DNA from: Gammaproteobacteria bacterium | Lineage (GTDB): Bacteria > Pseudomonadota > Gammaproteobacteria > SURF-13 | Assembly (NCBI GenBank): GCA_043721815.1 | Contig: JAYSPZ010000164.1 | Coordinates: 1 to 24,138, forward strand | Direction of reading: 5' to 3' | DNA length: 24,138 nucleotides | In this document: piece after piece, positions 4,901-13,206 of the stretch | How the letters are laid out: each line of letters begins with the position of its first letter | Position numbering within the stretch: the stretch's first letter is position 1 | The notes under the pieces: generated by a model | What the model saw: only the letters and a program-made list of their open reading frames with translations | The model's database searches: none | What the model was told of the DNA's origin: nothing | Made by a program: the position numbers and the translations under genes

Positions 4901-5347
4901 TTACCGCACTGTGTAGTTTTCTCGCATTGTCTTCAGAACCTTCTGCAATTTTTGGAAATTAGACTCCGTGCCGACTTTATCCTTAGCATCGCCACTGGCA
5001 TCCAAGCGTTCGGCTAAAGTTGCTACGAACTGACTATTGGTTTTAATTTTTGCCAGCTTGTCAGCAGGCAAGGCACCGGAACGGGCTGGTATTGCCGCTA
5101 CGAGATCACGGATAGCAAAGGCGTGAAGGTGCACTTCATTGAGCTTGCCGGTTTCGATAACCTTCGCTAGCTCCTCGCTTCGTTTATCTATTGATTGCCA
5201 AATAGCGTCAGTGGTGGTTGGAACCTCTACTTTGGTCTCGGGTTTTTCTGCCGCTTGCGCGGACGGGTTAAATAGCGCGCTGCCAACCAGCAGCGCGCCG
5301 AGTAGAGCGGTCTGGGGTTTAACAATTTTCATCAATGTCTTCTTCAT
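4901..5347 (-). CDS. Secreted alpha-helical protein of unknown function, coupled to the RND pump gene
   Basis: Signal peptide ending AQA-A, amphipathic helical pattern, EVHLHAF motif. ATGA overlap with the RND stop at 5344-5347. Confidence 0.8.
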   Translation of the reverse strand: MKKTLMKIVKPQTALLGALLVGSALFNPSAQAAEKPETKVEVPTTTDAIWQSIDKRSEELAKVIETGKLNEVHLHAFAIRDLVAAIPARSGALPADKLAKIKTNSQFVATLAERLDASGDAKDKVGTESNFQKLQKVLKTMRENYTVR

Positions 5348-8300
5348 GCTGCGGACTCCTCTGGATTAAGTTGCGGATTCGATTGCTGTGGGGCTTTAAC
5401 TTGCTGCGCAGCCAACTTGGCCTCACGACGCTCACGCCATTGCTCCATACGGTTATAGACGGTAGGCACCACAACCATATTCAATAAGGTGGCCGTCACC
5501 AGCCCGCCCAATACGACTTGTGCCAGGGGACGCTCCAGCTCTTTGCCGACCGGAGAACCCCACAGCAGTGGAATCAAACCTAGTGCGGCAGTGGCCGCCG
5601 TCATCAGCACCGGCACCAGACGATCCAGCGTGCCTTGCACCACGACTTCATGCAGCGGCTTGCCCTCGGCGCGCAACTGGCTGTAGTGGCTGACGAGGAT
5701 GATGCCGTTGCGCGTGGCGATGCCGAACAGGGTGATGAAGCCGATGATGGCGGCCACGCTCATGTTCGCACCCGCCAGATAAAGGCTGACGATGCCACCG
5801 ATCATCGCAAGCGGCAGGTTGAACATTACCAGCAGCGCTTCGCGGAAAGTGCCGAAGGCTTTATATAGCAATAGCAGCGCACCAAATATGGCCAGCAGGC
5901 CGAAGCTGAGCAGGGTGCGGTTCGCTGCCTGCTGGGACTGGAACTGGCCGCCATATTCAAAGTAGTAGCCAGGCGGCAGTTTGATCTCCTTGTTGATTGC
6001 CACCTGCGTATCGGCGATGACACTGCCGAGGTCGCGGCCCTGTACGTTGAAACCAACCACCAGCAGGCGCTGCACGCTCTCGCGACTGATCGCGTAAGGT
6101 TGATCCTCTACATTCACATCGGCGACTTGGCGCAAGGGAATCTTACCGTTGCCCTTCTCCAATACGGATGCATCCACCAGAATGTTGCGGATATCCTCTA
6201 CACTGTTGCGTTGCGAACTCTGTAGACGCACGTTGAGGTCGAAGGTGCGGTGCCCTTCCAGAATGCTGGAGACGTTTTCGCCGTTGAGGAACAGCTGGAT
6301 GTCCTGGGCCACGTCGCCCACGTTGATACCGTAGCGGGCGGCCTTTTCGCGGTCGATCTTGATGCTCACCTGGGGCACGTTGATCTGCTGCTCGACGTTG
6401 ATATCCACCGCGCCGGGTACCTTCTGGAGTATGCCACGCACCTGTTGGCCAAGTTGATATAGCTGCGGTAGTTTTTCGCCGAAAATTTTGATGGCAACCT
6501 GAGCACGCACCCCGGATTCCACCTCGTCGAAACGGTGCGCGATAAACTGGCCGATGTTGAACACGGCACCCGGTATATTGCCAAGATCCTTGCGGATGTT
6601 TTCCAATAGAACATTTGCGGATATATCGCGATTTTTTTCAAAATCCAGGCGCACGTCGAACTCACTGAAATTGGGCGGCTGTGCATCTTCGTCGAGTTCA
6701 CTGCGTCCGGCACGTTGCGAAATGGAGACAACTTGCGGATATTTCAACATGTCCCGGCGCACCAAGTCGCCGAGACGCATGGATTCCTCCAGCGAAGTGC
6801 CGGGCAAAGTCACCATGGAGACGATGAAGTTACCCTCCTGAAATTCGGGCAGGAACGAACGACCAAACAAGGGCAACAAGGACAGCGTCAGTGCCAAAGC
6901 TAGCACGGACATCCCTACCACCCACCAGAAGCGGCGCAGCGCCACGTTCAGCAGGCGCGAAAATTGGCGCTTCAGTCCAATCACGAAACGCGTTTCCTTT
7001 TCATGCCCTTCACCGCTGCCGTGGCCAGCAGTGTCGGCGGCGAGTTCCCGGCGACCCAGGGCGCGCAGCTTCACGTCCCGATCCAGGCGTTTTTCGTCCT
7101 TGCGCACTAGCAGGAAATAACAGAGCGCTGGCACCGTGGTCACCGCCACGACCAGCGATACGGTCACGGAGGCGATATAGGCGATGCCCAATGGGCTAAA
7201 AATGCGTCCAGCCAGATCTTCCAGGAAAAAGATCGGCAGAAAAATCAGGATAATGATGAACGTGGCATACACGACCGAATTGAGAATTTCCTGCACCGCG
7301 TCGAACACCACCTCCATCGGTGGCAGCGGACGCTCGGCGTTGCGGTTCAGGCGCAGCCGGCGCACCACGTTCTCTACCGTGATGATGCCGTTGTCCACCA
7401 CCTCGCCAATGGCGATGGCGAGGCCTCCGAGTGTCATGGCGTTGATGCCGATGTCGAAGGCGTACATCACTAAAATGCCGCCCACGAACGACACCGGCAT
7501 GGACAAAAAGGTGATGAAAGAGGCGCGCCAGTTCGCCAGGAATATGAACAACACGGCGATGACGATCAGCGCGCCTTCCAAGAGCGCAACATTCAGGTTG
7601 TGCACTGCTGTCTCGATGAAGTTGGCTTGGCGGAATACCTGAGCTTCCATCTTCACACCGGGCGGCAACTTCTGCTTAATCTCGGCCAGCGTCTTCTCCA
7701 CCTTCGCGGTGGTGGTGACGGTATCGGCCCCGTAGGCCTTGGACACCGTGCCGATCACCGCGTCTTTCAAGCCATAGGCACCATCACCGCGCTTGATCTC
7801 GCCACCGAAGACCACCTCGGCTACGTTGGCGATGGTGATGGGCACCTGGTCACGCACGGTTATCAGCGTGGTTTTGATGTCATCCAGCGAAGTGATCCGG
7901 CCTATGCCGCTGACGATGAATTCCTGTCCGGGTTGCTGCAGGAAGGCACCCGGAACATTGACATTGGCGTTGCGCAAAGCGTCGCGTACCTGTTCGATGC
8001 TGATGTTGTAGGCCAGCATGCGTTGCGGATCGAGGCGCACTTGGTATTGCTTGACCTCGCCGCCGATGGAGACCACAGAGGCAATGCCGCCCAGCGACAA
8101 AATGCGCGGGCGGATGTCCCAGTCGGACAAGGTGCGTAGTTCTTCCGGTGATACGCTATCGCTGGTCAGCGCGTATTTGACCAGCCAGCCCACTGCCGAA
8201 GTAACGGGTAGCATCACCGGGATGCTACCCGGTGGCAAACGGCCTTGCACATTCTGGATACGCTCGTTTACAAGCTGACGATCTAGATAGACATCCGTGC

Positions 8301-8598
8301 CCGAGTCAAACACTACCACGATGGTGGACAAGCCGACGGAGGTCTTGGAGCGAACGGCAGTCACGCCCGGCGTGCCATTGATTGCGCTTTCCAGCGGATA
8401 GGTGATGAGCGACTCCACGTCTTGCGGGGCCATGCCCGGTGCTTCGGTCTGCACCACGACCTGGGGCGGGGCAAATTCGGGGAATACATCGAGCGCCATG
8501 CGTTGCAGGGCAAAGCCACCCGCAATCATGAGCACTAAAGTGAACGCCAACACGATGAGACGGTTGTGCAGCGACCAGGCGATGAGCGTGTTAAACAT
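5344..8598 (-). CDS. CusA/CzcA-family heavy-metal RND efflux pump
   Basis: 1084 aa. DVFPEFAPPQVVVQTEAPG, TM4 GLAIAIGEVVDNGIITVEN, GRSFLPEFQEG, TM10/11 GIATRNGIILV...DRLVPVLMTA. TAATG overlap with the adaptor stop. Confidence 0.96.
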   Translation of the reverse strand: MFNTLIAWSLHNRLIVLAFTLVLMIAGGFALQRMALDVFPEFAPPQVVVQTEAPGMAPQDVESLITYPLESAINGTPGVTAVRSKTSVGLSTIVVVFDSGTDVYLDRQLVNERIQNVQGRLPPGSIPVMLPVTSAVGWLVKYALTSDSVSPEELRTLSDWDIRPRILSLGGIASVVSIGGEVKQYQVRLDPQRMLAYNISIEQVRDALRNANVNVPGAFLQQPGQEFIVSGIGRITSLDDIKTTLITVRDQVPITIANVAEVVFGGEIKRGDGAYGLKDAVIGTVSKAYGADTVTTTAKVEKTLAEIKQKLPPGVKMEAQVFRQANFIETAVHNLNVALLEGALIVIAVLFIFLANWRASFITFLSMPVSFVGGILVMYAFDIGINAMTLGGLAIAIGEVVDNGIITVENVVRRLRLNRNAERPLPPMEVVFDAVQEILNSVVYATFIIILIFLPIFFLEDLAGRIFSPLGIAYIASVTVSLVVAVTTVPALCYFLLVRKDEKRLDRDVKLRALGRRELAADTAGHGSGEGHEKETRFVIGLKRQFSRLLNVALRRFWWVVGMSVLALALTLSLLPLFGRSFLPEFQEGNFIVSMVTLPGTSLEESMRLGDLVRRDMLKYPQVVSISQRAGRSELDEDAQPPNFSEFDVRLDFEKNRDISANVLLENIRKDLGNIPGAVFNIGQFIAHRFDEVESGVRAQVAIKIFGEKLPQLYQLGQQVRGILQKVPGAVDINVEQQINVPQVSIKIDREKAARYGINVGDVAQDIQLFLNGENVSSILEGHRTFDLNVRLQSSQRNSVEDIRNILVDASVLEKGNGKIPLRQVADVNVEDQPYAISRESVQRLLVVGFNVQGRDLGSVIADTQVAINKEIKLPPGYYFEYGGQFQSQQAANRTLLSFGLLAIFGALLLLYKAFGTFREALLVMFNLPLAMIGGIVSLYLAGANMSVAAIIGFITLFGIATRNGIILVSHYSQLRAEGKPLHEVVVQGTLDRLVPVLMTAATAALGLIPLLWGSPVGKELERPLAQVVLGGLVTATLLNMVVVPTVYNRMEQWRERREAKLAAQQVKAPQQSNPQLNPEESAA

Positions 8599-9824
8599 TA
8601 GTGCTGATCTCCGGCTTCGGTGTGCTTGTTCCCATCGGTATGCTCTTCCGCCGCAAGCGGTTTTTTAGCCTGCGGGTCTGTCGAGACGGGTTTTTCCTGT
8701 TTCGTTTGCTTACTGCCAAAAGTCTTGATGCGCGCCGTGAAGTTGCCTATCCCATTAGTAAGCTGGCCTATCCAGCTAACTGGTTTTTCATCTTTCATCT
8801 GGCTATCAGGAGCGGTCGGCTTTTCCTCTTTTGCCGACTCGCCACTGCCGGTCAGCCACATCGTGTAAACCTGCCGGTTGCCTTGCGTCACGACTTCATC
8901 GCCAGGCACCAGGCCCTCGGTGATTTCACTGAATGCACCATCGCGCACGCCAACACTCACTTCCATGCGATTAAAGCTGTTGCCTTCCGCCACAAACACG
9001 AACTTCTCACCATTGGCTTCAACAATAGCGCTGTTGGGCACCGCCAGCGCCGCGTCGTTACGCTTCAGGATCACGCTGGCGCGCGCAAACATATTGGGCT
9101 TGAGCAGGCCCTGTTCATTCGCCAGTTCTATCCAGAGATTTACGGTGCGGCTAAGTGGATCAAGGTTGGTATCGATCAACGTGACCTTGCCGGTAAATAT
9201 CTCATTGGGATAACTGAGCACATGAACACGGGCCTCCTGCTCGACCTTGATCTTGCCCAGGTCTTCCTCAAATACCTTGGCTATGACAATGACTTGCGTG
9301 CGGTCACTGATATGAAAAAGTGAAGAATTGGGCTCCACCGCCTGGCCGACACTCACATTAAGCGCATCGATAAGGCCGCTCATGGGCGCAGTAATATTGA
9401 CGCTGGGCGGTGGATCGCCACTCAGGCGCGATTCCACCTTGGCGAGATTCTGCCCGGCCTTGACCGTATCCCCCAGCTTGGCGTACAAGGCCTTCACCTG
9501 GCCGCTAATGCGTAGGCCGACCTCAGCCTGGCGGTTGGGTAGCAACTGCACCTGACCGTTGAGGTTCAACTCCTGATTGATAGTGCGTACTTCAGCGGGC
9601 GCGGTTTGCAGGGCAATAGCCTGCTTCTGCTGATCGGTGAGTTGCACCGGGCCGCGTGCGCCACCACCGCCCACCTCGATTTCCTCGCCATGGCCAACGG
9701 CCTCGGGCAGCATGAATGGCAGGGTTAGTAGCAATAAAACGATTCCTGTAATAAATCGAAGAAATGCACTGTGGCTCACTCTGTTTCGAAATATGTAGCT
9801 ATTCAATGCGGTTATTCCTTTCAT
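8598..9824 (-). CDS. RND periplasmic adaptor (MFP), apparently lacking the alpha-helical hairpin
   Basis: N-terminal TM anchor; lipoyl halves RISGQVKALYAKLGDTVKAGQNLA and ITAPMSGLIDALNVSVGQAV; LDPLSRTV, LKPNMFA, VPNSAIV, GLVPGDEVVTQG. Confidence 0.92.
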   Translation of the reverse strand: MKGITALNSYIFRNRVSHSAFLRFITGIVLLLLTLPFMLPEAVGHGEEIEVGGGGARGPVQLTDQQKQAIALQTAPAEVRTINQELNLNGQVQLLPNRQAEVGLRISGQVKALYAKLGDTVKAGQNLAKVESRLSGDPPPSVNITAPMSGLIDALNVSVGQAVEPNSSLFHISDRTQVIVIAKVFEEDLGKIKVEQEARVHVLSYPNEIFTGKVTLIDTNLDPLSRTVNLWIELANEQGLLKPNMFARASVILKRNDAALAVPNSAIVEANGEKFVFVAEGNSFNRMEVSVGVRDGAFSEITEGLVPGDEVVTQGNRQVYTMWLTGSGESAKEEKPTAPDSQMKDEKPVSWIGQLTNGIGNFTARIKTFGSKQTKQEKPVSTDPQAKKPLAAEEHTDGNKHTEAGDQH

Positions 9825-11259
9825 AGGGGCGTGTGGCTGGCACGGTCATAGACATCGACTGATCTGGTAGCGTGGGAACCTGCTGGCCCCGTGTTACATC
9901 TAATTGCGCGTCCGAAGTAAAGGAATTCGACGGGCCTGGTGCCAGTCCGTCTCCGAAACTGCTCCCAACTCCAAAGGCCAGGCCCGTCAATGCTTGCAAA
10001 TACTGGTCAAGGACATTGAGATAAGCGATATGTGCATCGGTGTGCTGGCGCTGGGCCTGCACCACGGCAAAGATCGGGATTTGCCCAAGGCCATAGGCAG
10101 CCTGCGAATTACTGACGTTACTGTCGGCTAAAGGTAGTATGGTGTGTTCGTAGTCATGCAGGGCCACCTTCAGGCGTTCGCTCTCGGCGTAGGCGCTGGC
10201 GACCTGGTTGCTGATGCTGGCCGCAAGCGCTTCACTCCGCGCCGTAGCCTGGCTGCCCGCAACGATGGCTTCGGCGATGCGGCCCTGATTCTTATTGCGC
10301 AAGGGTAGGGGGATAGACAGGGTCACACCCAATGCACGCTCGGTGTCTTGCGGCGGTGCGCCGGTGATGGACAGGCGACTTTGCTCCACGCCTACGCCGA
10401 CCGTCCAGTCTTCCCAGGTCTGGGAACGCGCCAGTGCCTGAGCCGCACGGGCGCGTTCCAGGTTCAGGGCCTCGACCCGTAATTCGGGACGTTGGCTTAA
10501 GGCTTGTTGTTGCAACTTCTCCACACCGGGCAAGACCTGTGCCCTGGCCAACGAGTCATCCAAGGTCAATGCCTGCCCAGCGACCCTCCCCAGCAACTGG
10601 TTCAGCAGGCCCTGTTGTGTTGCCTGCTGGTTTTGCAGCAAGGTACGCTCCTGCTCCAAACGCGCCAGCTCTATGCGCGCCGTGAATACATCCAGTTCCG
10701 ACACCTCTGCCACCTTGAAGCGGTTGCGGGTGACCTTGACCAGCTTTTTATCCACCTTTATCAGACTGTCACGCTCCGCAATCTGGCGATTCAGGACGAT
10801 GATCCGGTAATACGTGGAGGCCACATTACCCGTCAGCCTGCGCTCGGCGATATTGATTTCAGCCATTGCCAAGTCAACATCCACCCGCGCCACGTCTTTC
10901 TCGCGGGCCAGCCACCCGGCTACGGGGAACTGCTGGGTGAAGCCCGCACTGACGGCGTATTCGCCGTTATTACCGAACAGAAAGTCGCTGCGCGTGGACA
11001 ATTCGAGGCGCGGATTAGCAGGCAATCCAGCCTGCGCCAGACGGGCATGTGCGGCATCCACGCTATAACGGGCTGCTTGCAAATCCTTGTTATTTTGCAG
11101 GGCCAGCGTAATGACTTCTTCCAGCCCGAAGCTTGTCGCGTTGCTCTGAGACTCGATCCCTTTTGCCATAAGGGCGGCGCTCACGGCGCTCAGCCAGCCG
11201 CCAGCGACAATAACGAGAACCAGACGCGACAAAGCGCGGTTGAGCATGAGTAATGACAT
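9799..11259 (-). CDS. TolC/CzcC-family outer-membrane efflux factor
   Basis: EVITLALQNNKDL, ALSQRPEL, LSIPLPLRNKNQGRI, two-repeat OEP pattern. Start chosen at ATG 11259 (GGGA upstream, signal peptide follows) rather than 11301. Confidence 0.93.
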   Translation of the reverse strand: MSLLMLNRALSRLVLVIVAGGWLSAVSAALMAKGIESQSNATSFGLEEVITLALQNNKDLQAARYSVDAAHARLAQAGLPANPRLELSTRSDFLFGNNGEYAVSAGFTQQFPVAGWLAREKDVARVDVDLAMAEINIAERRLTGNVASTYYRIIVLNRQIAERDSLIKVDKKLVKVTRNRFKVAEVSELDVFTARIELARLEQERTLLQNQQATQQGLLNQLLGRVAGQALTLDDSLARAQVLPGVEKLQQQALSQRPELRVEALNLERARAAQALARSQTWEDWTVGVGVEQSRLSITGAPPQDTERALGVTLSIPLPLRNKNQGRIAEAIVAGSQATARSEALAASISNQVASAYAESERLKVALHDYEHTILPLADSNVSNSQAAYGLGQIPIFAVVQAQRQHTDAHIAYLNVLDQYLQALTGLAFGVGSSFGDGLAPGPSNSFTSDAQLDVTRGQQVPTLPDQSMSMTVPATRPYERNNRIE

Positions 11260-11265
11260 GAAATA

Positions 11266-11385
11266 TATTCCCAAAATTAAACACCGTGCTGAATAACACA
11301 CGAGCCGGGAATACGGTTTGAGGTGAAACGGAGAAGCTTAAGGATGCCCCAAAACCGTAATACCCAGCCCGAAAAGGGCAGGGTA
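11266..11385 (-). promoter_or_regulatory. Structured intergenic leader with potential SD-masking hairpin
   Basis: 7-bp inverted repeat at 11307-11313 / 11266-11272 that includes the putative GGGA SD; competing 8-bp inverted repeat at 11352-11359 / 11312-11319; hairpin at 11361-11385. Confidence 0.5.
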
Positions 11386-11393
11386 GAAGGACA

Positions 11394-11867
11394 TCAGAGC
11401 GGTGGGGCGTGAGGCCAGAGGGAGTTGGCGATTAAAAAATGCCTGGATTTGCCGCCGGGAGGGTCAATGCCGAAATGGCGGACAACCAGTGCCGGCAAGA
11501 AAAGAACAGCAGAAATAACGGCAATAAACGGTACTAAAACATAGGCCAGATCATACAATGCCTGAAGATTGCTGGCCTGAGAAAATGCCGAGAGATTTTG
11601 CAGTAAGGTACAGCAAGCGTCCCCCGATTTTTTATCGCCCCCGCCATGTTGGACGTGCTCACCGGCTTGGTTGCTAACCGGGGTGGAACCTGCTCCAAAG
11701 TGTTGCTCCGGGGACTCACCGAACTGCATTACACTTATCGAGCAAACCGCCAGCGAAAATATCCAACTAGCCAATACCACCCAAGCAATACCGCGCAAAC
11801 TCACACCACCGAACCGCCGGAAAATGGAATTATGACGCATCGGTTGGTTTGGAACGGCTGGATACAC
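11394..11867 (-). CDS. DUF2946/CzcI-like upstream ORF; candidate metal-sensing ribosome arrest peptide
   Basis: N-terminal hydrophobic segment, His-containing linker, DACC, second hydrophobic stretch, C-terminal SLWPHAPPL*. First gene of the metal-efflux operon. Start uncertain (GTG 11867 or ATG 11840). Confidence 0.7.
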   Translation of the reverse strand: MYPAVPNQPMRHNSIFRRFGGVSLRGIAWVVLASWIFSLAVCSISVMQFGESPEQHFGAGSTPVSNQAGEHVQHGGGDKKSGDACCTLLQNLSAFSQASNLQALYDLAYVLVPFIAVISAVLFLPALVVRHFGIDPPGGKSRHFLIANSLWPHAPPL

Positions 11868-11990
11868 GTTATAACGACCCTGACTTATAATTGAGCGAAG
11901 TGTGCAGATTCGACACCTCCAGTTTCTAGTAGTTCACGCACCACGTCAATCACAGCGGGTAGTTGACACAGCTTTCTGCACTTATAATTT

Positions 11991-12018
11991 ACTTCGCATA
12001 ATGTATATTATGTTAAAT
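11991..12018 (+). other. dif: XerC/XerD dif recombination site
   Basis: ACTTCGCATAA-TGTATA-TTATGTTAAAT versus E. coli GGTGCGCATAA-TGTATA-TTATGTTAAAT: 25/28 identical with a perfect spacer and XerD arm; intergenic. Confidence 0.93.
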
Positions 12019-12143
12019 AATAGGTGTTAGGGAAGCTCTAGTCACGCACCCTTCATTTCATTGCACTTGCCTGTAGCCTGGCTCATCATGCGTTTAGTGG
12101 TATCGAGTGTCTTTTGTCGAAACAGACGCGGGAGGAACATATC

Positions 12144-12263
12144 ATGCTGGGGATCGAGGGTTATCTTATTCTTGTGCTTATCGCGGTGGGCATCGTGCTG
12201 GCGAATTTCATAATTAACAGGATCGGTAGAAAAAACAAGGAAAGCGACAATACCCAAGAATAA
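12144..12263 (+). CDS. Unannotated 39-aa single-pass membrane microprotein
   Basis: GGAGG SD at 12131-12135, 8 nt before ATG; MLGIEGYLILVLIAVGIVLANFIINRIGRKNKESDNTQE*, i.e. an approx. 20-aa TM helix followed by a basic stretch. Below the size of any ORF in the track. Confidence 0.7.
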   Translation: MLGIEGYLILVLIAVGIVLANFIINRIGRKNKESDNTQE

Positions 12264-12375
12264 TCCAAGGAAACACCGTTGTCCTGGGTGCCTCCTGCCG
12301 GGCAGCAGTTCAGTTTGAAAATTACGGCAGTGAGGTCGGGGGTTCATCCCCCTTCCCCCCTGTCGCTATCCTGAA

Positions 12376-13206
12376 TTAACAGGGATTATTAGGAGTGGGG
12401 ATACATGGCGGTGTCTGCGGCGGTGGCAGCCCTGTTGCAGGCGGCTGTACTATTGCAGGCGGCTGCGGCGTTCCGTCCGCCGGTGTTCCCTTGTTAAGGG
12501 CATCATTGGCGCCATCCGAGCTTCTGTCACTCACCGCGTCGCTGAATCTGGCCTCCTCCGGCAGGCCCGGTGGTGTGACGACCTCCGGGGCAGTGGTGAC
12601 CTCCTGAGCAACAATGATCTCCGGGGCAGTGTTGGCATCACGGACACGGGCGCTATTGGTCTGGGTACCTGCGTCGAGATTAAGCGACCCTGCCTTATTT
12701 AGAACAAAGCCGGAACCCCGCCAGAAACGGACCTTTAATACCCCACTCTCGTCCAGCGTCACTTCCAGGTCAGTGCCACGTACACCGATACTGGCAACCG
12801 GCGTATTGATCCGGTAGGCATCCGGTCTTTGCTTGGAGATAAACCCGGTGACCGTGCGTAACCCACCCTTGAGCAGCGTCATCACACTGGCATGGTTACC
12901 TTTATTAGCCGAATCAAACCGGTAATCGTCCACCCGCAGCTCCGTGTTAGGCTTGAGCGACAGCAAGGCATCGTCTATGAATTTAACCTGCGCACGCGAG
13001 TTGGCACCGGTTTTCAATACCTCGCCGCTGTAAAATTCGGATTTGCGCGCGAGCGCCCTGCTCTTGCCTTGAGACGTGATCGCGGATACCTCGCCGCTGG
13101 CGACGATCACCTGACCGACCAACACGGCGGCTTGCGTGACCGGGCTTAGCAACGCCAAACCTATCCAAAACAACCCCGCAGCGATACGACCTCTCTGGCT
13201 AAACAT
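12376..13206 (-). CDS. Secreted FecR-domain protein with Pro-rich C-terminal tail
   Basis: Signal peptide; VGQVIVASGEV...GEVLKTGANSRAQVKFIDDALLSLKPNTEL...LLKGGLR...INTPVASIGVRGT is the FecR beta-sandwich pattern. Confidence 0.88.
   Translation of the reverse strand: MFSQRGRIAAGLFWIGLALLSPVTQAAVLVGQVIVASGEVSAITSQGKSRALARKSEFYSGEVLKTGANSRAQVKFIDDALLSLKPNTELRVDDYRFDSANKGNHASVMTLLKGGLRTVTGFISKQRPDAYRINTPVASIGVRGTDLEVTLDESGVLKVRFWRGSGFVLNKAGSLNLDAGTQTNSARVRDANTAPEIIVAQEVTTAPEVVTPPGLPEEARFSDAVSDRSSDGANDALNKGTPADGTPQPPAIVQPPATGLPPPQTPPCIPTPNNPC

What the first reader, a model, noticed from the sequence alone, without database searches (positions are those of the whole stretch)
11394..11867. Candidate metal-sensing ribosome-arrest peptide heading the efflux operon
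Layout: N-terminal membrane-targeting segment, His-containing spacer (EQHF...EHVQH), vicinal Cys pair (DACC, 11610-11615), second hydrophobic stretch, and PHAPPL* at the extreme C-terminus (HAPP at 11400-11411). RAPP-like motifs cause arrest in ApdA/ApdP. The DUF2946-type uORFs CruR (Bordetella) and CutF (Rhodobacter) combine Cys motifs with Pro-rich ends to control the next gene in response to copper. Here a CC/HAPP variant sits before an apparently divalent-metal RND pump in a cluster with no regulator gene, suggesting co-translational metal sensing for efflux.
Basis: partly seen in the sequence, partly recalled or inferred. Interest (0 to 1): 0.85.

Follow-up and report, generated by a model that had tools for sequence, protein, structure and literature searches.

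The report
Metal-sensing stalling leader before efflux pump
A small conserved gene at the head of a heavy-metal efflux operon encodes a membrane-targeted Cys/His peptide ending in a ribosome-stalling type motif (His/Asn-Ala-Pro-Pro), so it is most likely a built-in translational metal sensor of an already described kind (CutF/CruR-like), here in a new and untested subfamily.

Summary
The ORF at 11394-11867 (-) is real and conserved.

Across 34 cluster representatives, which average 21% column identity, only five positions are invariant: Cys42, the second Cys of the CC pair, and Ala-Pro-Pro at the C-terminus.
- The motif is [N/H/Q]APP and is followed by one residue and the stop in 40 of 47 sequences.
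- It lies 65±1 residues after CC in 38 of 45 sequences.
- The A-P-P codons vary synonymously, so selection acts on the peptide.

Wherever the contig extends past the gene, it is followed after a 94-134 nt spacer by an outer-membrane-factor gene, with adaptor and RND pump genes where the contig reaches.

It scores below the Pfam DUF2946 cut-off. A global profile-profile alignment puts CC on CxxC and NAPP on RAPP, with a roughly 17-residue hydrophobic insertion.

HAPP and QAPP are experimentally shown arrest motifs; NAPP is not reported in the two arrest-peptide papers I searched. CutF-like leaders before RND pumps are already described in surveys, and this scan has met similar leaders in other genomes.

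The output mechanism is open: predicted masking of the pump's ribosome-binding site is no stronger than in shuffled controls. The "divalent" pump call is unresolved, and the context is copper.

Verdict: a plausible arrest-type metal-sensing leader and a new variant of a known kind, with no experimental test yet.

The parts
11394..11867 (-). Leader ORF. It is 157 aa from GTG 11867. An alternative start is ATG 11840, giving 148 aa. The stop is TGA at 11394-11396.
   Evidence: Homologues align over residues 4-12, which favours the longer form, but a 97%-identical database entry is called from the ATG.
11718..11798 (-). N-terminal hydrophobic segment (about residues 24-50) preceded by Arg residues. 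It is a signal-anchor or signal-peptide-like targeting segment and contains the invariant Cys42 (11742-11744).
   Evidence: Alignment A3. The AF2 helix spans 24-50 with pLDDT 75-88. No lipobox was seen by inspection of A3. No signal-peptide predictor was available.
11619..11717 (-). His-containing spacer of variable sequence and length (residues 51-83), predicted to be disordered.
   Evidence: One search shows poor conservation, His enrichment and length variation. In one search, mean pLDDT is 50-59 in the 10-residue blocks covering residues 51-100.
11610..11615 (-). Vicinal Cys pair (C85, C86), in the context D-x-C-C-x-x-L.
   Evidence: C86 is invariant and C85 is at least 90% conserved. The pair aligns with the CxxC of DUF2946 in global hhalign.
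11484..11558 (-). Second hydrophobic, TM-like segment (about residues 104-128). Its most hydrophobic 15-residue stretch ends about 28 residues before APP (family median).
   Evidence: median best 15-residue Kyte-Doolittle mean is 2.6, and the median distance from the end of that stretch to the Ala of APP is 28; helix 84-133.
11454..11462 (-). Conserved Pro-Pro-Gly (P136, P137, G138), a second diprolyl site 18 codons before APP.
   Evidence: P136 is nearly invariant, and by my count of A3 PP is kept in roughly three-quarters of the 34 sequences. That PPG is a strong EF-P-dependent pause motif is from my own knowledge and was not tested.
11397..11417 (-). C-terminal W-P-H-A-P-P-L. The candidate arrest motif HAPP is at 11400-11411. 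The predicted stall has Pro155 (11403-11405) in the P site and Pro156 in the A site.
   Evidence: A154, P155 and P156 are invariant. The motif statistics are, and the synonymous codon variation. The stall position is inferred from toeprints of (R/Q/H)APP peptides (PMC10987492).
11260..11393 (-). 134-nt spacer between the leader and the OMF gene.
   Evidence: Spacer length is 94-134 nt in 16 loci. Identity of the window to its group-A relatives is 65% here, against 52% in the middle of the uORF and 51% at the OMF 5' end.
11362..11384 (-). Hairpin P1 close to the stop codon (ACCCUGCCC / GGGCUGGGU).
   Evidence: In 14 of 17 loci the predicted fold of the first 42 nt starts pairing 1-4 nt after the stop, with unrelated arm sequences, and 12 of these reach -11 kcal/mol or lower. 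The statistics are modest (mean z -1.1).
11312..11359 (-). Helix P2 (UACGGUUUUGGGG ... CCUCAAACCGUA) with a C/U-rich loop.
   Evidence: One search gives the group-A consensus. One search shows the same helix across groups A and B, with changes on both sides at 5 of 6 pairs.
11266..11313 (-). Helix P3. UAUUCCC (11307-11313) can pair with GGGAAUA (11266-11272), which is the Shine-Dalgarno region of the OMF gene.
   Evidence: The predicted occlusion is not stronger than in shuffled spacers, so its role is unproven.
11923..11949 (-). Candidate promoter of the leader: TTGACG (11944-11949), 15 nt, then TAGAAA (11923-11928).
   Evidence: TTGAC is invariant and the following block is conserved in 7 loci. 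This rests on sequence conservation only. The generic scan picked a different site.
9799..11259 (-). Outer-membrane factor gene (start ATG 11259).
   Evidence: Pfam OEP, E 5e-44. The start was chosen from conserved N-termini in 13 loci.
8598..9824 (-). Periplasmic adaptor (CusB/CzcB type).
5344..8598 (-). Heavy-metal efflux RND pump (CusA/CzcA family).
   Evidence: TIGR00914, 861 bits. PDB hits are ZneA and CusA.

Best explanation
The ORF is a cis-acting leader of the CutF/CruR type that senses metal while it is being made.

Proposed sequence of events (all inferred; no step has been shown experimentally for this family):
1. The N-terminal hydrophobic segment takes the translating ribosome to the membrane.
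2. Cys42, the His-rich loop and the CC pair emerge on the periplasmic side while the last ~65 residues are still in the translocon and ribosomal tunnel.
3. The ribosome pauses with ...H-A-P in the P site and Pro-tRNA in the A site, one sense codon before the stop.
4. The length of the pause is set by the pull on the nascent chain. That pull comes from membrane insertion of the second hydrophobic segment, whose most hydrophobic stretch ends about 28 residues from the pause site, and from folding or oxidation of the Cys loop.
5. Binding of a thiophilic metal, most likely copper, changes that pull and lengthens the pause. This is the CutF polarity, which is what one expects for an efflux pump.
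6. The paused ribosome sits with its front edge at the foot of the stop-adjacent hairpin. It alters what happens in the conserved spacer, so that the OMF-adaptor-RND genes are expressed. The spacer event could be refolding that frees the OMF ribosome-binding site, or protection from Rho.

What is shown in silico: the conserved peptide islands and ruler, the gene order, and spacer conservation.
For: - Only C42, C86 and A-P-P are invariant across 34 cluster representatives that average 21% column identity.
- [N/H/Q]APP is followed by exactly one residue and the stop in 40 of 47 sequences. It lies 65±1 residues after CC in 38 of 45, although the N-terminal part varies in length. This parallels the conserved 45-residue CxxC-RAPP ruler of CruR, where lengthening the spacing by 5 residues strongly reduced copper control (PMC9426467). 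I measured 43-47 in 23 of 24 true DUF2946 proteins.
- The A, P and P codons use 3, 4 and 3 synonymous codons in 16 loci, so the constraint is on the peptide.
- An OMF gene follows after a 94-134 nt spacer wherever the contig extends, including members only 24-27% identical.
- The spacer is better conserved than the flanking coding DNA.
- Remote similarity to DUF2946: 10-11 members match at E 0.002-0.2. Global hhalign (probability 63%, E 1e-5) puts CC on CxxC and NAPP on RAPP.
- HAPP and QAPP arrest translation in vitro, with the third motif residue in the P site (PMC10987492).
- CutF and CruR show that such leaders can couple copper to downstream expression.
- AF2 gives no confident globular fold (pLDDT 64, pTM 0.34).
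- None of the 21 larger ORFs scanned with Pfam in the window matches a transcription-regulator family.
Against: - There is no experimental evidence of any kind, and no RNA data exist for this DNA.
- Arg, the first residue of RAPP, is replaced. Asn, the commonest residue here, does not appear as NAPP in the two arrest-peptide papers I searched.
- A few members end in NAPS.
- Predicted occlusion of the OMF SD is not above shuffled controls (mean 4.54 versus 5.00 kcal/mol; 6 of 16 loci above their shuffle mean).
- Masking the ribosome-covered bases lowers occlusion clearly in only about a third of the 13 loci tested.
- The stop-adjacent hairpin has only modest z-scores.
- The spacer is not clearly C-rich and G-poor, as a Rho site would be.
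- A hydrophobic second segment and helical prediction fit a stable two-helix membrane protein equally well.
- The MAG is 76% complete, so an unlinked regulator cannot be excluded.
Confidence: 0.55

Rival explanations
1. The ORF encodes a stable small membrane protein that acts after translation. It would have two helices and a periplasmic Cys/His loop. It could be a metal-binding accessory, chaperone or CzcI-like periplasmic regulator of the pump. The conserved W-P-N/H-A-P-P tail would then be a cytoplasmic interaction or stability signal, not an arrest site.
For: - AF2 predicts two long helices (24-50 and 84-133) with pLDDT up to 86-88.
- The second segment is as hydrophobic as a TM helix in most members.
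- CzcI, encoded before czcCBA, is discussed as a metal-sensing regulator that lacks the proline motif (PMC9973294).
- A fixed-length TM helix could by itself explain part of the constant CC-to-APP distance.
- This reading does not exclude a co-translational role as well.
Against: - Conservation is confined to three Cys and the last residues; the rest, including the second hydrophobic segment in distant members, drifts freely.
- The xAPP motif is held exactly one codon from the stop in 40 of 47 sequences, which is the geometry of known arrest leaders.
- The spacer that follows is conserved.
- RAPP-like motifs are reported to be generally avoided in proteomes and enriched at C-termini of small exported leaders (PMC12992588).
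Confidence: 0.25
2. It is an arrest leader with CruR-like polarity and output. The ribosome pauses by default and shields the spacer from Rho, and metal binding releases the pause and causes termination. Alternatively, the leader reports membrane-insertion (Sec/YidC) capacity rather than metal.
For: - The spacer is long, as in cruR-bfrG (162 nt), where Rho acts (PMC9426467).
- SD masking is not above chance.
- Arrest peptides with a TM segment typically monitor insertion machinery (PMC10987492).
Against: - Switching an efflux pump off when metal rises makes little physiological sense.
- The spacer shows no marked C-over-G bias (C 0.24-0.28, G 0.17-0.28).
- The downstream genes are metal efflux genes in a copper context, not sec or yidC.
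Confidence: 0.12
3. It is a spurious or decaying ORF with no function, and the motif is a chance feature.
For: No Pfam or NCBIfam family reaches its cut-off.
Against: - 33 cluster representatives have an intact frame, invariant residues and conserved gene order.
- There is synonymous variation under amino-acid invariance.
Confidence: 0.02

Closest known systems
CruR (Bp2923, Pfam DUF2946) of Bordetella pertussis (PMC9426467)
   Same: - A small exported-type leader that is the first gene of a copper-related operon.
- A semi-conserved Cys at the end of the N-terminal hydrophobic segment.
- A Cys motif, then a fixed-length linker, then an xAPP motif a few residues before the stop.
- A long spacer before the next gene.
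- A global profile alignment pairs the motifs.
   Different: - CC instead of CxxC.
- [N/H/Q]APP instead of RAPP.
- A ruler of 65 residues instead of 45, the extra length being a hydrophobic stretch.
- One residue rather than three after the motif.
- The downstream genes are an efflux pump, not a TonB-dependent importer, so the opposite polarity is expected.
- The Pfam score is below the cut-off (12.7 versus 23.7 bits).
CutF of Rhodobacter capsulatus and 'CutF-like' proteins (PMC9973294; bioRxiv 10.1101/2025.02.05.636593)
   Same: - It meets most of the operational criteria: a small protein, PP within the last 15 residues, a Cys/His motif, and a same-strand downstream gene.
- OEP/RND genes are the commonest neighbours of CutF-like genes.
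- The expected polarity is metal leading to stall leading to expression.
   Different: - CutF uses CxxxC and PPP, depends on EF-P, and has a short spacer whose stem-loop shields the cutO SD.
- Here the spacer is 94-134 nt and SD shielding is not above chance.
- I could not establish whether this subfamily is in their lists.
RAPP-like arrest peptides: ApdA, ApdP, SecM and the RQH family (PMC10951233, PMC7897499, PMC10987492, PMC12992588)
   Same: - A C-terminal X-A-P-P core after an N-terminal localisation signal.
- HAPP and QAPP variants have been shown to arrest translation, with the third motif residue in the P site.
   Different: - Those peptides monitor Sec/YidC and precede secA, secDF or yidC.
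- They have no Cys/His metal motif.
- Asn at the first position does not appear in the two papers I searched.
CzcI of Cupriavidus metallidurans
   Same: A small protein encoded directly before a czcCBA-type RND operon and proposed to be metal-sensing (as cited in PMC9973294).
   Different: CzcI lacks the C-terminal proline motif, according to that paper. No sequence comparison was made here.

Membership tests
Pfam DUF2946 (PF11162) | HMM score at or above the gathering cut-off (23.7 bits) | tested here: not met
   The window protein scores 12.7 bits, E 0.22. The best family member reaches E 0.0016, and 10-11 members give sub-threshold matches.
Pfam DUF2946 (PF11162) | Conserved CxxC motif | tested here: not met
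   The family has vicinal CC. In global hhalign, CC aligns with CxxC with a two-residue gap.
Pfam DUF2946 (PF11162) | C-terminal RAPP motif | tested here: not met
   APP is invariant, but the first residue is N in 31, H in 15 and Q in 1, never R.
Pfam DUF2946 (PF11162) | CxxC-to-RAPP spacing of about 45 residues | tested here: not met
   The spacing here is 65±1 in 38 of 45 sequences. It is 43-47 in 23 of 24 true DUF2946 proteins taken from genomes.
Pfam DUF2946 (PF11162) | Homology detectable by profile-profile comparison | tested here: inconclusive
   hhalign global gives probability 63% and E 1e-5 over 128 columns. Local mode aligns only the N-terminal hydrophobic segment (probability 60%).
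Pfam DUF2946 (PF11162) | First gene of an operon for copper homeostasis | tested here: met
   It heads the OMF-adaptor-RND genes. CopA, CopB and CusF lie downstream in the window, and YHS and CopK lie next to a distant member.
CutF-like proteins (operational definition of Ozturk et al. 2023) | [quoted passage not shown] | tested here: met
   It is 148 aa from ATG 11840 (157 aa from GTG, which makes it borderline). PP is at positions -3 and -2 from the end.
CutF-like proteins (operational definition of Ozturk et al. 2023) | N-terminal signal peptide | tested here: inconclusive
   There is a positively charged n-region and a hydrophobic stretch of about 18 residues. No signal-peptide predictor was available, and it may be an uncleaved anchor.
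CutF-like proteins (operational definition of Ozturk et al. 2023) | [quoted passage not shown] | tested here: met
   The spacer is 134 nt. CC, C42 and the His-containing loop are present.
RAPP-like (RQH) arrest peptides | (R/Q/H)-(A/G/D)-(P/G/S)-(P/G) motif near the C-terminus of a small protein with a localisation signal | tested here: met
   The window protein has HAPP. However, two thirds of the family have N at position 1, outside the published set.
RAPP-like (RQH) arrest peptides | Encoded upstream of secA, secDF or yidC | tested here: not met
   The downstream genes are OMF, adaptor and RND pump.
RAPP-like (RQH) arrest peptides | Demonstrated ribosome stalling (toeprint or peptidyl-tRNA) | not testable with these tools
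   This needs PURE translation or toeprinting. No RNA or ribosome-profiling run holds this DNA.

The most novel reading that the evidence does not exclude
This family is a force-gated, two-segment arrest leader with a new arrest core (Asn/His-Ala-Pro-Pro). The 20-residue extension of the DUF2946 ruler would be a membrane-inserting segment placed about 28 residues from the peptidyl-transferase centre. Periplasmic metal binding to C42, CC and His would control whether that segment inserts and pulls the chain out of arrest. That would be a mechanical, transmembrane metal sensor distinct from both CruR and CutF. It would read out through the stop-adjacent hairpin and conserved spacer rather than through simple SD unmasking.
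Probability: 0.2. Interest if true: 0.65.

Novelty: new variant of a known kind. Interest (0 to 1): 0.4.

Why it matters
If the reading holds, it adds a distinct branch to the metal-sensing leader peptides, with three notable features.
- The arrest core's first residue is usually Asn, which does not appear in the two arrest-peptide papers I searched.
- The sensor-to-arrest ruler is 65 residues rather than 45.
- A membrane-inserting segment lies between the sensor and the arrest site.

This would give a natural system for asking how events outside the membrane are transmitted to the peptidyl-transferase centre. It would also explain how RND metal pumps in these sediment bacteria are induced without an adjacent regulator gene.

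Practically, it would help annotation. The gene has no Pfam or NCBIfam name and is easily dismissed as hypothetical.

The principle itself is already published, so the gain is incremental unless the mechanics prove different.

Tried and rejected
- Rfam scan of 11000-12400 gave no relevant family; the only hit was a weak sRNA match at 11991-12018.
I repeated it with A1.
- A word-based homologue search with a true DUF2946 protein returned only the query itself. I collected DUF2946 proteins by genome search instead.
- No DUF2946 match was found in the window's own 76%-complete genome.
- SD masking: the opening energy of the OMF SD (2.2-11 kcal/mol) is not higher than with shuffled upstream spacers. 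The observed mean is 4.54 against 5.00 for shuffles, and 6 of 16 loci are above their shuffle mean. I therefore do not claim SD sequestration as evidence.
- Ribosome-footprint masking lowers SD occlusion by more than 1.4 kcal/mol in the window, L003, L004 and L007, by about 1 in L001, and hardly at all in L005, L006, L008 and L010-L014. This is inconsistent.
- Intrinsic terminator: one weak terminator-like site inside P3, not above the shuffle expectation (1 found against 1.6 expected). Rejected as an attenuator.
- Rho site: the spacer has no marked C-over-G bias.
- The stop-adjacent hairpin recurs, but its mean z-score is only -1.1.
- RNA evidence: only DNA runs from sediment metagenomes hold the sequence, so I did not lay reads.
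- The supplements of PMC9973294 held as text do not contain the motif or the related genus names.
- A lipobox at C42 was rejected, because position -1 is mostly V, L, F or T.
Full report
**1. The observation**

The ORF on the minus strand at 11394-11867 is present as described. It is 157 codons from GTG 11867, or 148 from ATG 11840. By direct count from the sequence:
- CC (C85, C86) is at 11610-11615.
- H-A-P-P is at 11400-11411, followed by Leu and TGA.
- EQHF and EHVQH lie in the spacer between the N-terminal hydrophobic segment and CC.

The relatives' N-termini align with the window's residues 4-12. That favours the GTG start, but a 97%-identical database protein is called from the ATG.

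**2. It is a real, conserved gene with very few conserved residues**

A word-indexed search found 14 homologues at 43-97% identity, none with a Pfam domain. A full HMM search of 1.84 billion cluster representatives with their alignment found only 33 proteins at E ≤ 0.001, all 124-217 aa. This is a small, rare family.

In the alignment of the window protein with these 33 (A3, mean column identity 21%):
- The only invariant columns are C42, C86, A154, P155 and P156.
- C85 and P136 are at least 90% conserved.

Statistics over A1 and A3 together:
- The residue before APP is N in 31 sequences, H in 15 and Q in 1.
- Exactly one residue follows APP before the stop in 40 of 47.
- The distance from CC to the motif is 64-66 residues in 38 of 45 (range 59-70), although the region before CC varies in length.
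- The most hydrophobic 15-residue stretch between CC and APP ends a median of 28 residues before APP.

Three close relatives (two database proteins and locus L009) end in NAPS.

In 16 loci, Ala uses GCC, GCT and GCG. The first Pro uses all four codons and the second Pro uses three. The constraint is therefore on the peptide, not on the RNA.

**3. Context**

Downstream on the same strand lie:
- an OMF gene (Pfam OEP, E 5e-44),
- a CusB/CzcB-type adaptor,
- a CusA/CzcA-family RND pump,
- an unnamed 148-aa secreted protein,
- then CopA multicopper oxidase, CopB, CusF and a DUF2231 membrane protein.

None of the 21 larger ORFs I scanned with Pfam in the 24-kb window matches a transcription-regulator family. 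The other genes are a FecR-domain protein, a TPR/beta-barrel protein and unrelated metabolic genes. The genome is a 76%-complete MAG of 1.1 Mb, so an unlinked regulator cannot be excluded.

The order leader, spacer, OMF (adaptor and pump where the contig reaches) recurs in every locus long enough to show it:
- L001/L002, L003 and L005, where the called genes give leader, OMF, adaptor and RND pump.
- L004, L006-L008 and L010-L014, where an OMF-like ORF follows after a 105-134 nt spacer.
- Distant members at 24-27% identity: L047, next to YHS and CopK proteins, with OMF, adaptor and the start of a further gene; L049 with an OEP gene; and L050, where a long unannotated gene follows.

The spacer is 94-134 nt in 16 loci.

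Among 61 related genomes the family was found in 3, and not in the three (incomplete) genomes of the same genus that were searched. The distribution is patchy.

**4. Pump specificity**

- The best PDB match is ZneA (E 7e-153), just ahead of CusA (1.5e-142).
- In TM4 the pump reads A-I-G...D-N-G...V-E-N. It aligns to CusA's A-V-G...D-A-A...I-E-N rather than ZneA's D-F-G...D-G-A...M-E-N.
- By my reading of the alignment, and taking the CusA positions M573, M623 and M672 from memory, the CusA Met triad does not appear to be kept, and acidic residues sit nearby.

The surrounding genes are copper genes. I call it a heavy-metal RND pump in a copper context, specificity open.

**5. Relation to DUF2946, CruR and CutF**

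The Pfam DUF2946 model matches the window protein over profile positions 2-101 of 117, but at 12.7 bits against a cut-off of 23.7. Eleven of 15 close members and 10 of 34 broad members give the same sub-threshold match, with a best E of 0.0016.

I collected 24 genuine DUF2946 proteins from genome searches. All end in RAPP with 1-9 further residues, and 23 of 24 have a CxxC-RAPP spacing of 43-47.

hhalign of A3 against their alignment gave two results:
- In global mode, probability 63% and E 1e-5 over 128 columns. D-x-C-C-x-x-L lies on C-x-x-C-x-L-L and NAPPR lies on RAPP, with a gap of about 17 residues in the hydrophobic stretch.
- In local mode only the N-terminal hydrophobic segments align.

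A language-model look-up also lists DUF2946 clusters among near neighbours, which is a lead only.

My reading is a distant relative or convergent look-alike of DUF2946. It fails the family's defining tests (HMM, CxxC, RAPP, 45-residue ruler) but shares its architecture.

**6. What is known**

- **CruR.** CxxC and RAPP are needed. The 45-residue spacing is conserved in more than 2000 proteins. Adding 5 residues strongly reduced copper control. Output is Rho-dependent termination in a 162-nt spacer, and copper relieves the arrest (PMC9426467).
- **CutF.** CxxxC and PPP are needed. Export is required. [quoted passage not shown]
- **Survey.** Ozturk et al. surveyed 5,334 CutF-like proteins. OEP/RND genes were the commonest downstream neighbours, and SilD and CusD are named.
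- **RQH arrest peptides.** Fujiwara et al. showed that HAPP and QAPP variants of the RAPP core arrest translation in PURE systems. The H or Q contributes to arrest, and the stall has the third motif residue in the P site (PMC10987492).
- **Proteome bias.** RAPP-like motifs are avoided in proteomes and enriched at the C-termini of small exported proteins (PMC12992588).
- NAPP does not occur in either paper's text.

The principle is therefore published. This scan has also met similar leaders in other genomes, including HAPP-ending ones before RND pumps.

**7. The spacer**

- For the window against its group-A relatives, the spacer is 65% identical. The middle of the uORF is 52%, the first 300 nt of the OMF gene 51%, and the last 60 nt of the uORF 76%.
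- The group-A consensus fold has three elements: a hairpin close to the stop (P1, 11362-11384), a longer helix with a C/U-rich loop (P2, 11312-11359), and a helix whose base pairs UAUUCCC with the SD GGGAAUA (P3, 11266-11313).
- P2 recurs in the divergent Gallionella-like group, with changes on both sides at 5 of 6 pairs.
- In 14 of 17 loci the predicted fold of the first 42 nt starts pairing 1-4 nt after the stop. Twelve of these reach -11 kcal/mol or lower. The arm sequences are unrelated (CCGCCC/GGGCGG, CCUUCCC/GGGAAGG, CGCAC/GUGCG, UCCCG/CGGGA). The mean z-score is only -1.1.

With Pro155 in the P site, the front edge of the ribosome (about +12 to +16) would lie 1-5 nt past the stop. In most loci that is at the foot of P1. 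This is geometry inferred and general knowledge.

The controls were negative or weak:
- The energy needed to open the SD is not larger than with shuffled upstream spacers (4.54 against 5.00 kcal/mol; 6 of 16 loci above their shuffle mean).
- Masking the bases a stalled or terminating ribosome would cover lowers it clearly in only about a third of the loci.
- The single terminator-like site is within chance.
- There is no clear C-over-G bias for Rho.
- No Rfam family matches.

So the spacer is under selection, and P1 and P2 are probably real structures. Which step they control is not shown.

**8. Structure**

AF2 with the family alignment gives pLDDT 64 and pTM 0.34. It predicts helices at 24-50 and 84-133 and a short helix at 143-148, with a disordered His loop. 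This fits both a nascent-chain sensor and a small two-helix membrane protein, so I did not run fold searches on so poor a model.

**9. Explanation and odds**

- **Best (0.55):** a cis-acting, membrane-targeted leader whose translation pauses at [N/H]A-P/P. The pause length depends on metal binding to the periplasmic Cys/His loop and on insertion of the second hydrophobic segment. It controls expression of the OMF-adaptor-RND genes through the conserved spacer, and CutF-like polarity is expected. Every mechanistic step is inferred from analogy and geometry. The conservation pattern, ruler, gene order and spacer conservation are shown in silico.
- **Rival 1 (0.25):** a stable small membrane metal-binding protein.
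- **Rival 2 (0.12):** an arrest leader with CruR-like polarity and Rho output, or one that monitors insertion machinery.
- **Rival 3 (0.02):** a spurious ORF.

**10. Novelty**

This is a new variant of a known kind. The differences from CruR and CutF are concrete:
- vicinal CC,
- an N/H/Q first residue,
- a 65-residue ruler with a TM-like insertion,
- one residue before the stop,
- a conserved spacer of about 130 nt in the window's closest relatives (94-134 nt across the 16 loci).

None of these is tested, and the general idea is in the literature.

**11. Other points**

- A conserved promoter-like block, TTGACG-15 nt-TAGA(A/G)A, lies about 55-80 nt upstream of the start in 7 loci.
- A conserved PPG lies 18 codons before APP.
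- In L001, a second RND operon is headed by a different Cys/Met-rich leader ending in a PPP motif.

Noticed in passing
L001:1661-2044 (+): On the same metagenome contig, a second OEP-CusB-RND operon is headed by an unrelated 127-aa ORF. This ORF has a signal-peptide-like start and many Cys and Met residues, and it carries N-P-P-P ten residues before the stop. Two pumps on one contig therefore each have their own CutF-like leader.
   Followed up: partly
window 4901-5347 (-): A 148-aa secreted-looking protein rich in Ala, Lys and Glu lies directly after the RND gene and has no Pfam or NCBIfam match. A 154-aa gene occupies the same position in L001 and L002, so it may be a conserved accessory of this pump type.
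   Followed up: no
window 5344-8598 (-): The RND pump combines a CusA-like first TM4 position (A-I-G, not D-F-G) with apparent loss of the CusA Met triad. Its closest solved structure is ZneA. Metal specificity cannot be read from the sequence.
   Followed up: partly
window 8598-9824 (-): The adaptor protein carries a C-terminal tail of about 100 residues rich in Lys, Glu and Pro, ending in a His/Asp-rich stretch. This could be a metal-binding extension.
   Followed up: no
L009:1879-1911 (+); proteins P0008 and P0010: A subgroup of close relatives ends in N-A-P-S-H instead of N-A-P-P-R. This may be a natural weakened or altered arrest core and would be useful as a comparison.
   Followed up: partly
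window 11923-11949 (-): An invariant TTGAC is followed by a conserved block ending in TAGA(A/G)A upstream of the leader in seven loci. It is a probable promoter, and no palindromic operator is evident.
   Followed up: partly
window 11454-11462 (-): A conserved Pro-Pro-Gly lies 18 codons upstream of the APP motif. It could be a second, EF-P-sensitive pause site.
   Followed up: no
whole family: The family is rare and patchy. There are 33 clusters at 50% identity in 1.84 billion proteins, and it was found in 3 of 61 related genomes. It occurs in Sulfuricaulis/Sulfurifustaceae-like and Gallionella-like MAGs from sediments, which fits carriage on mobile metal-resistance clusters.
   Followed up: partly
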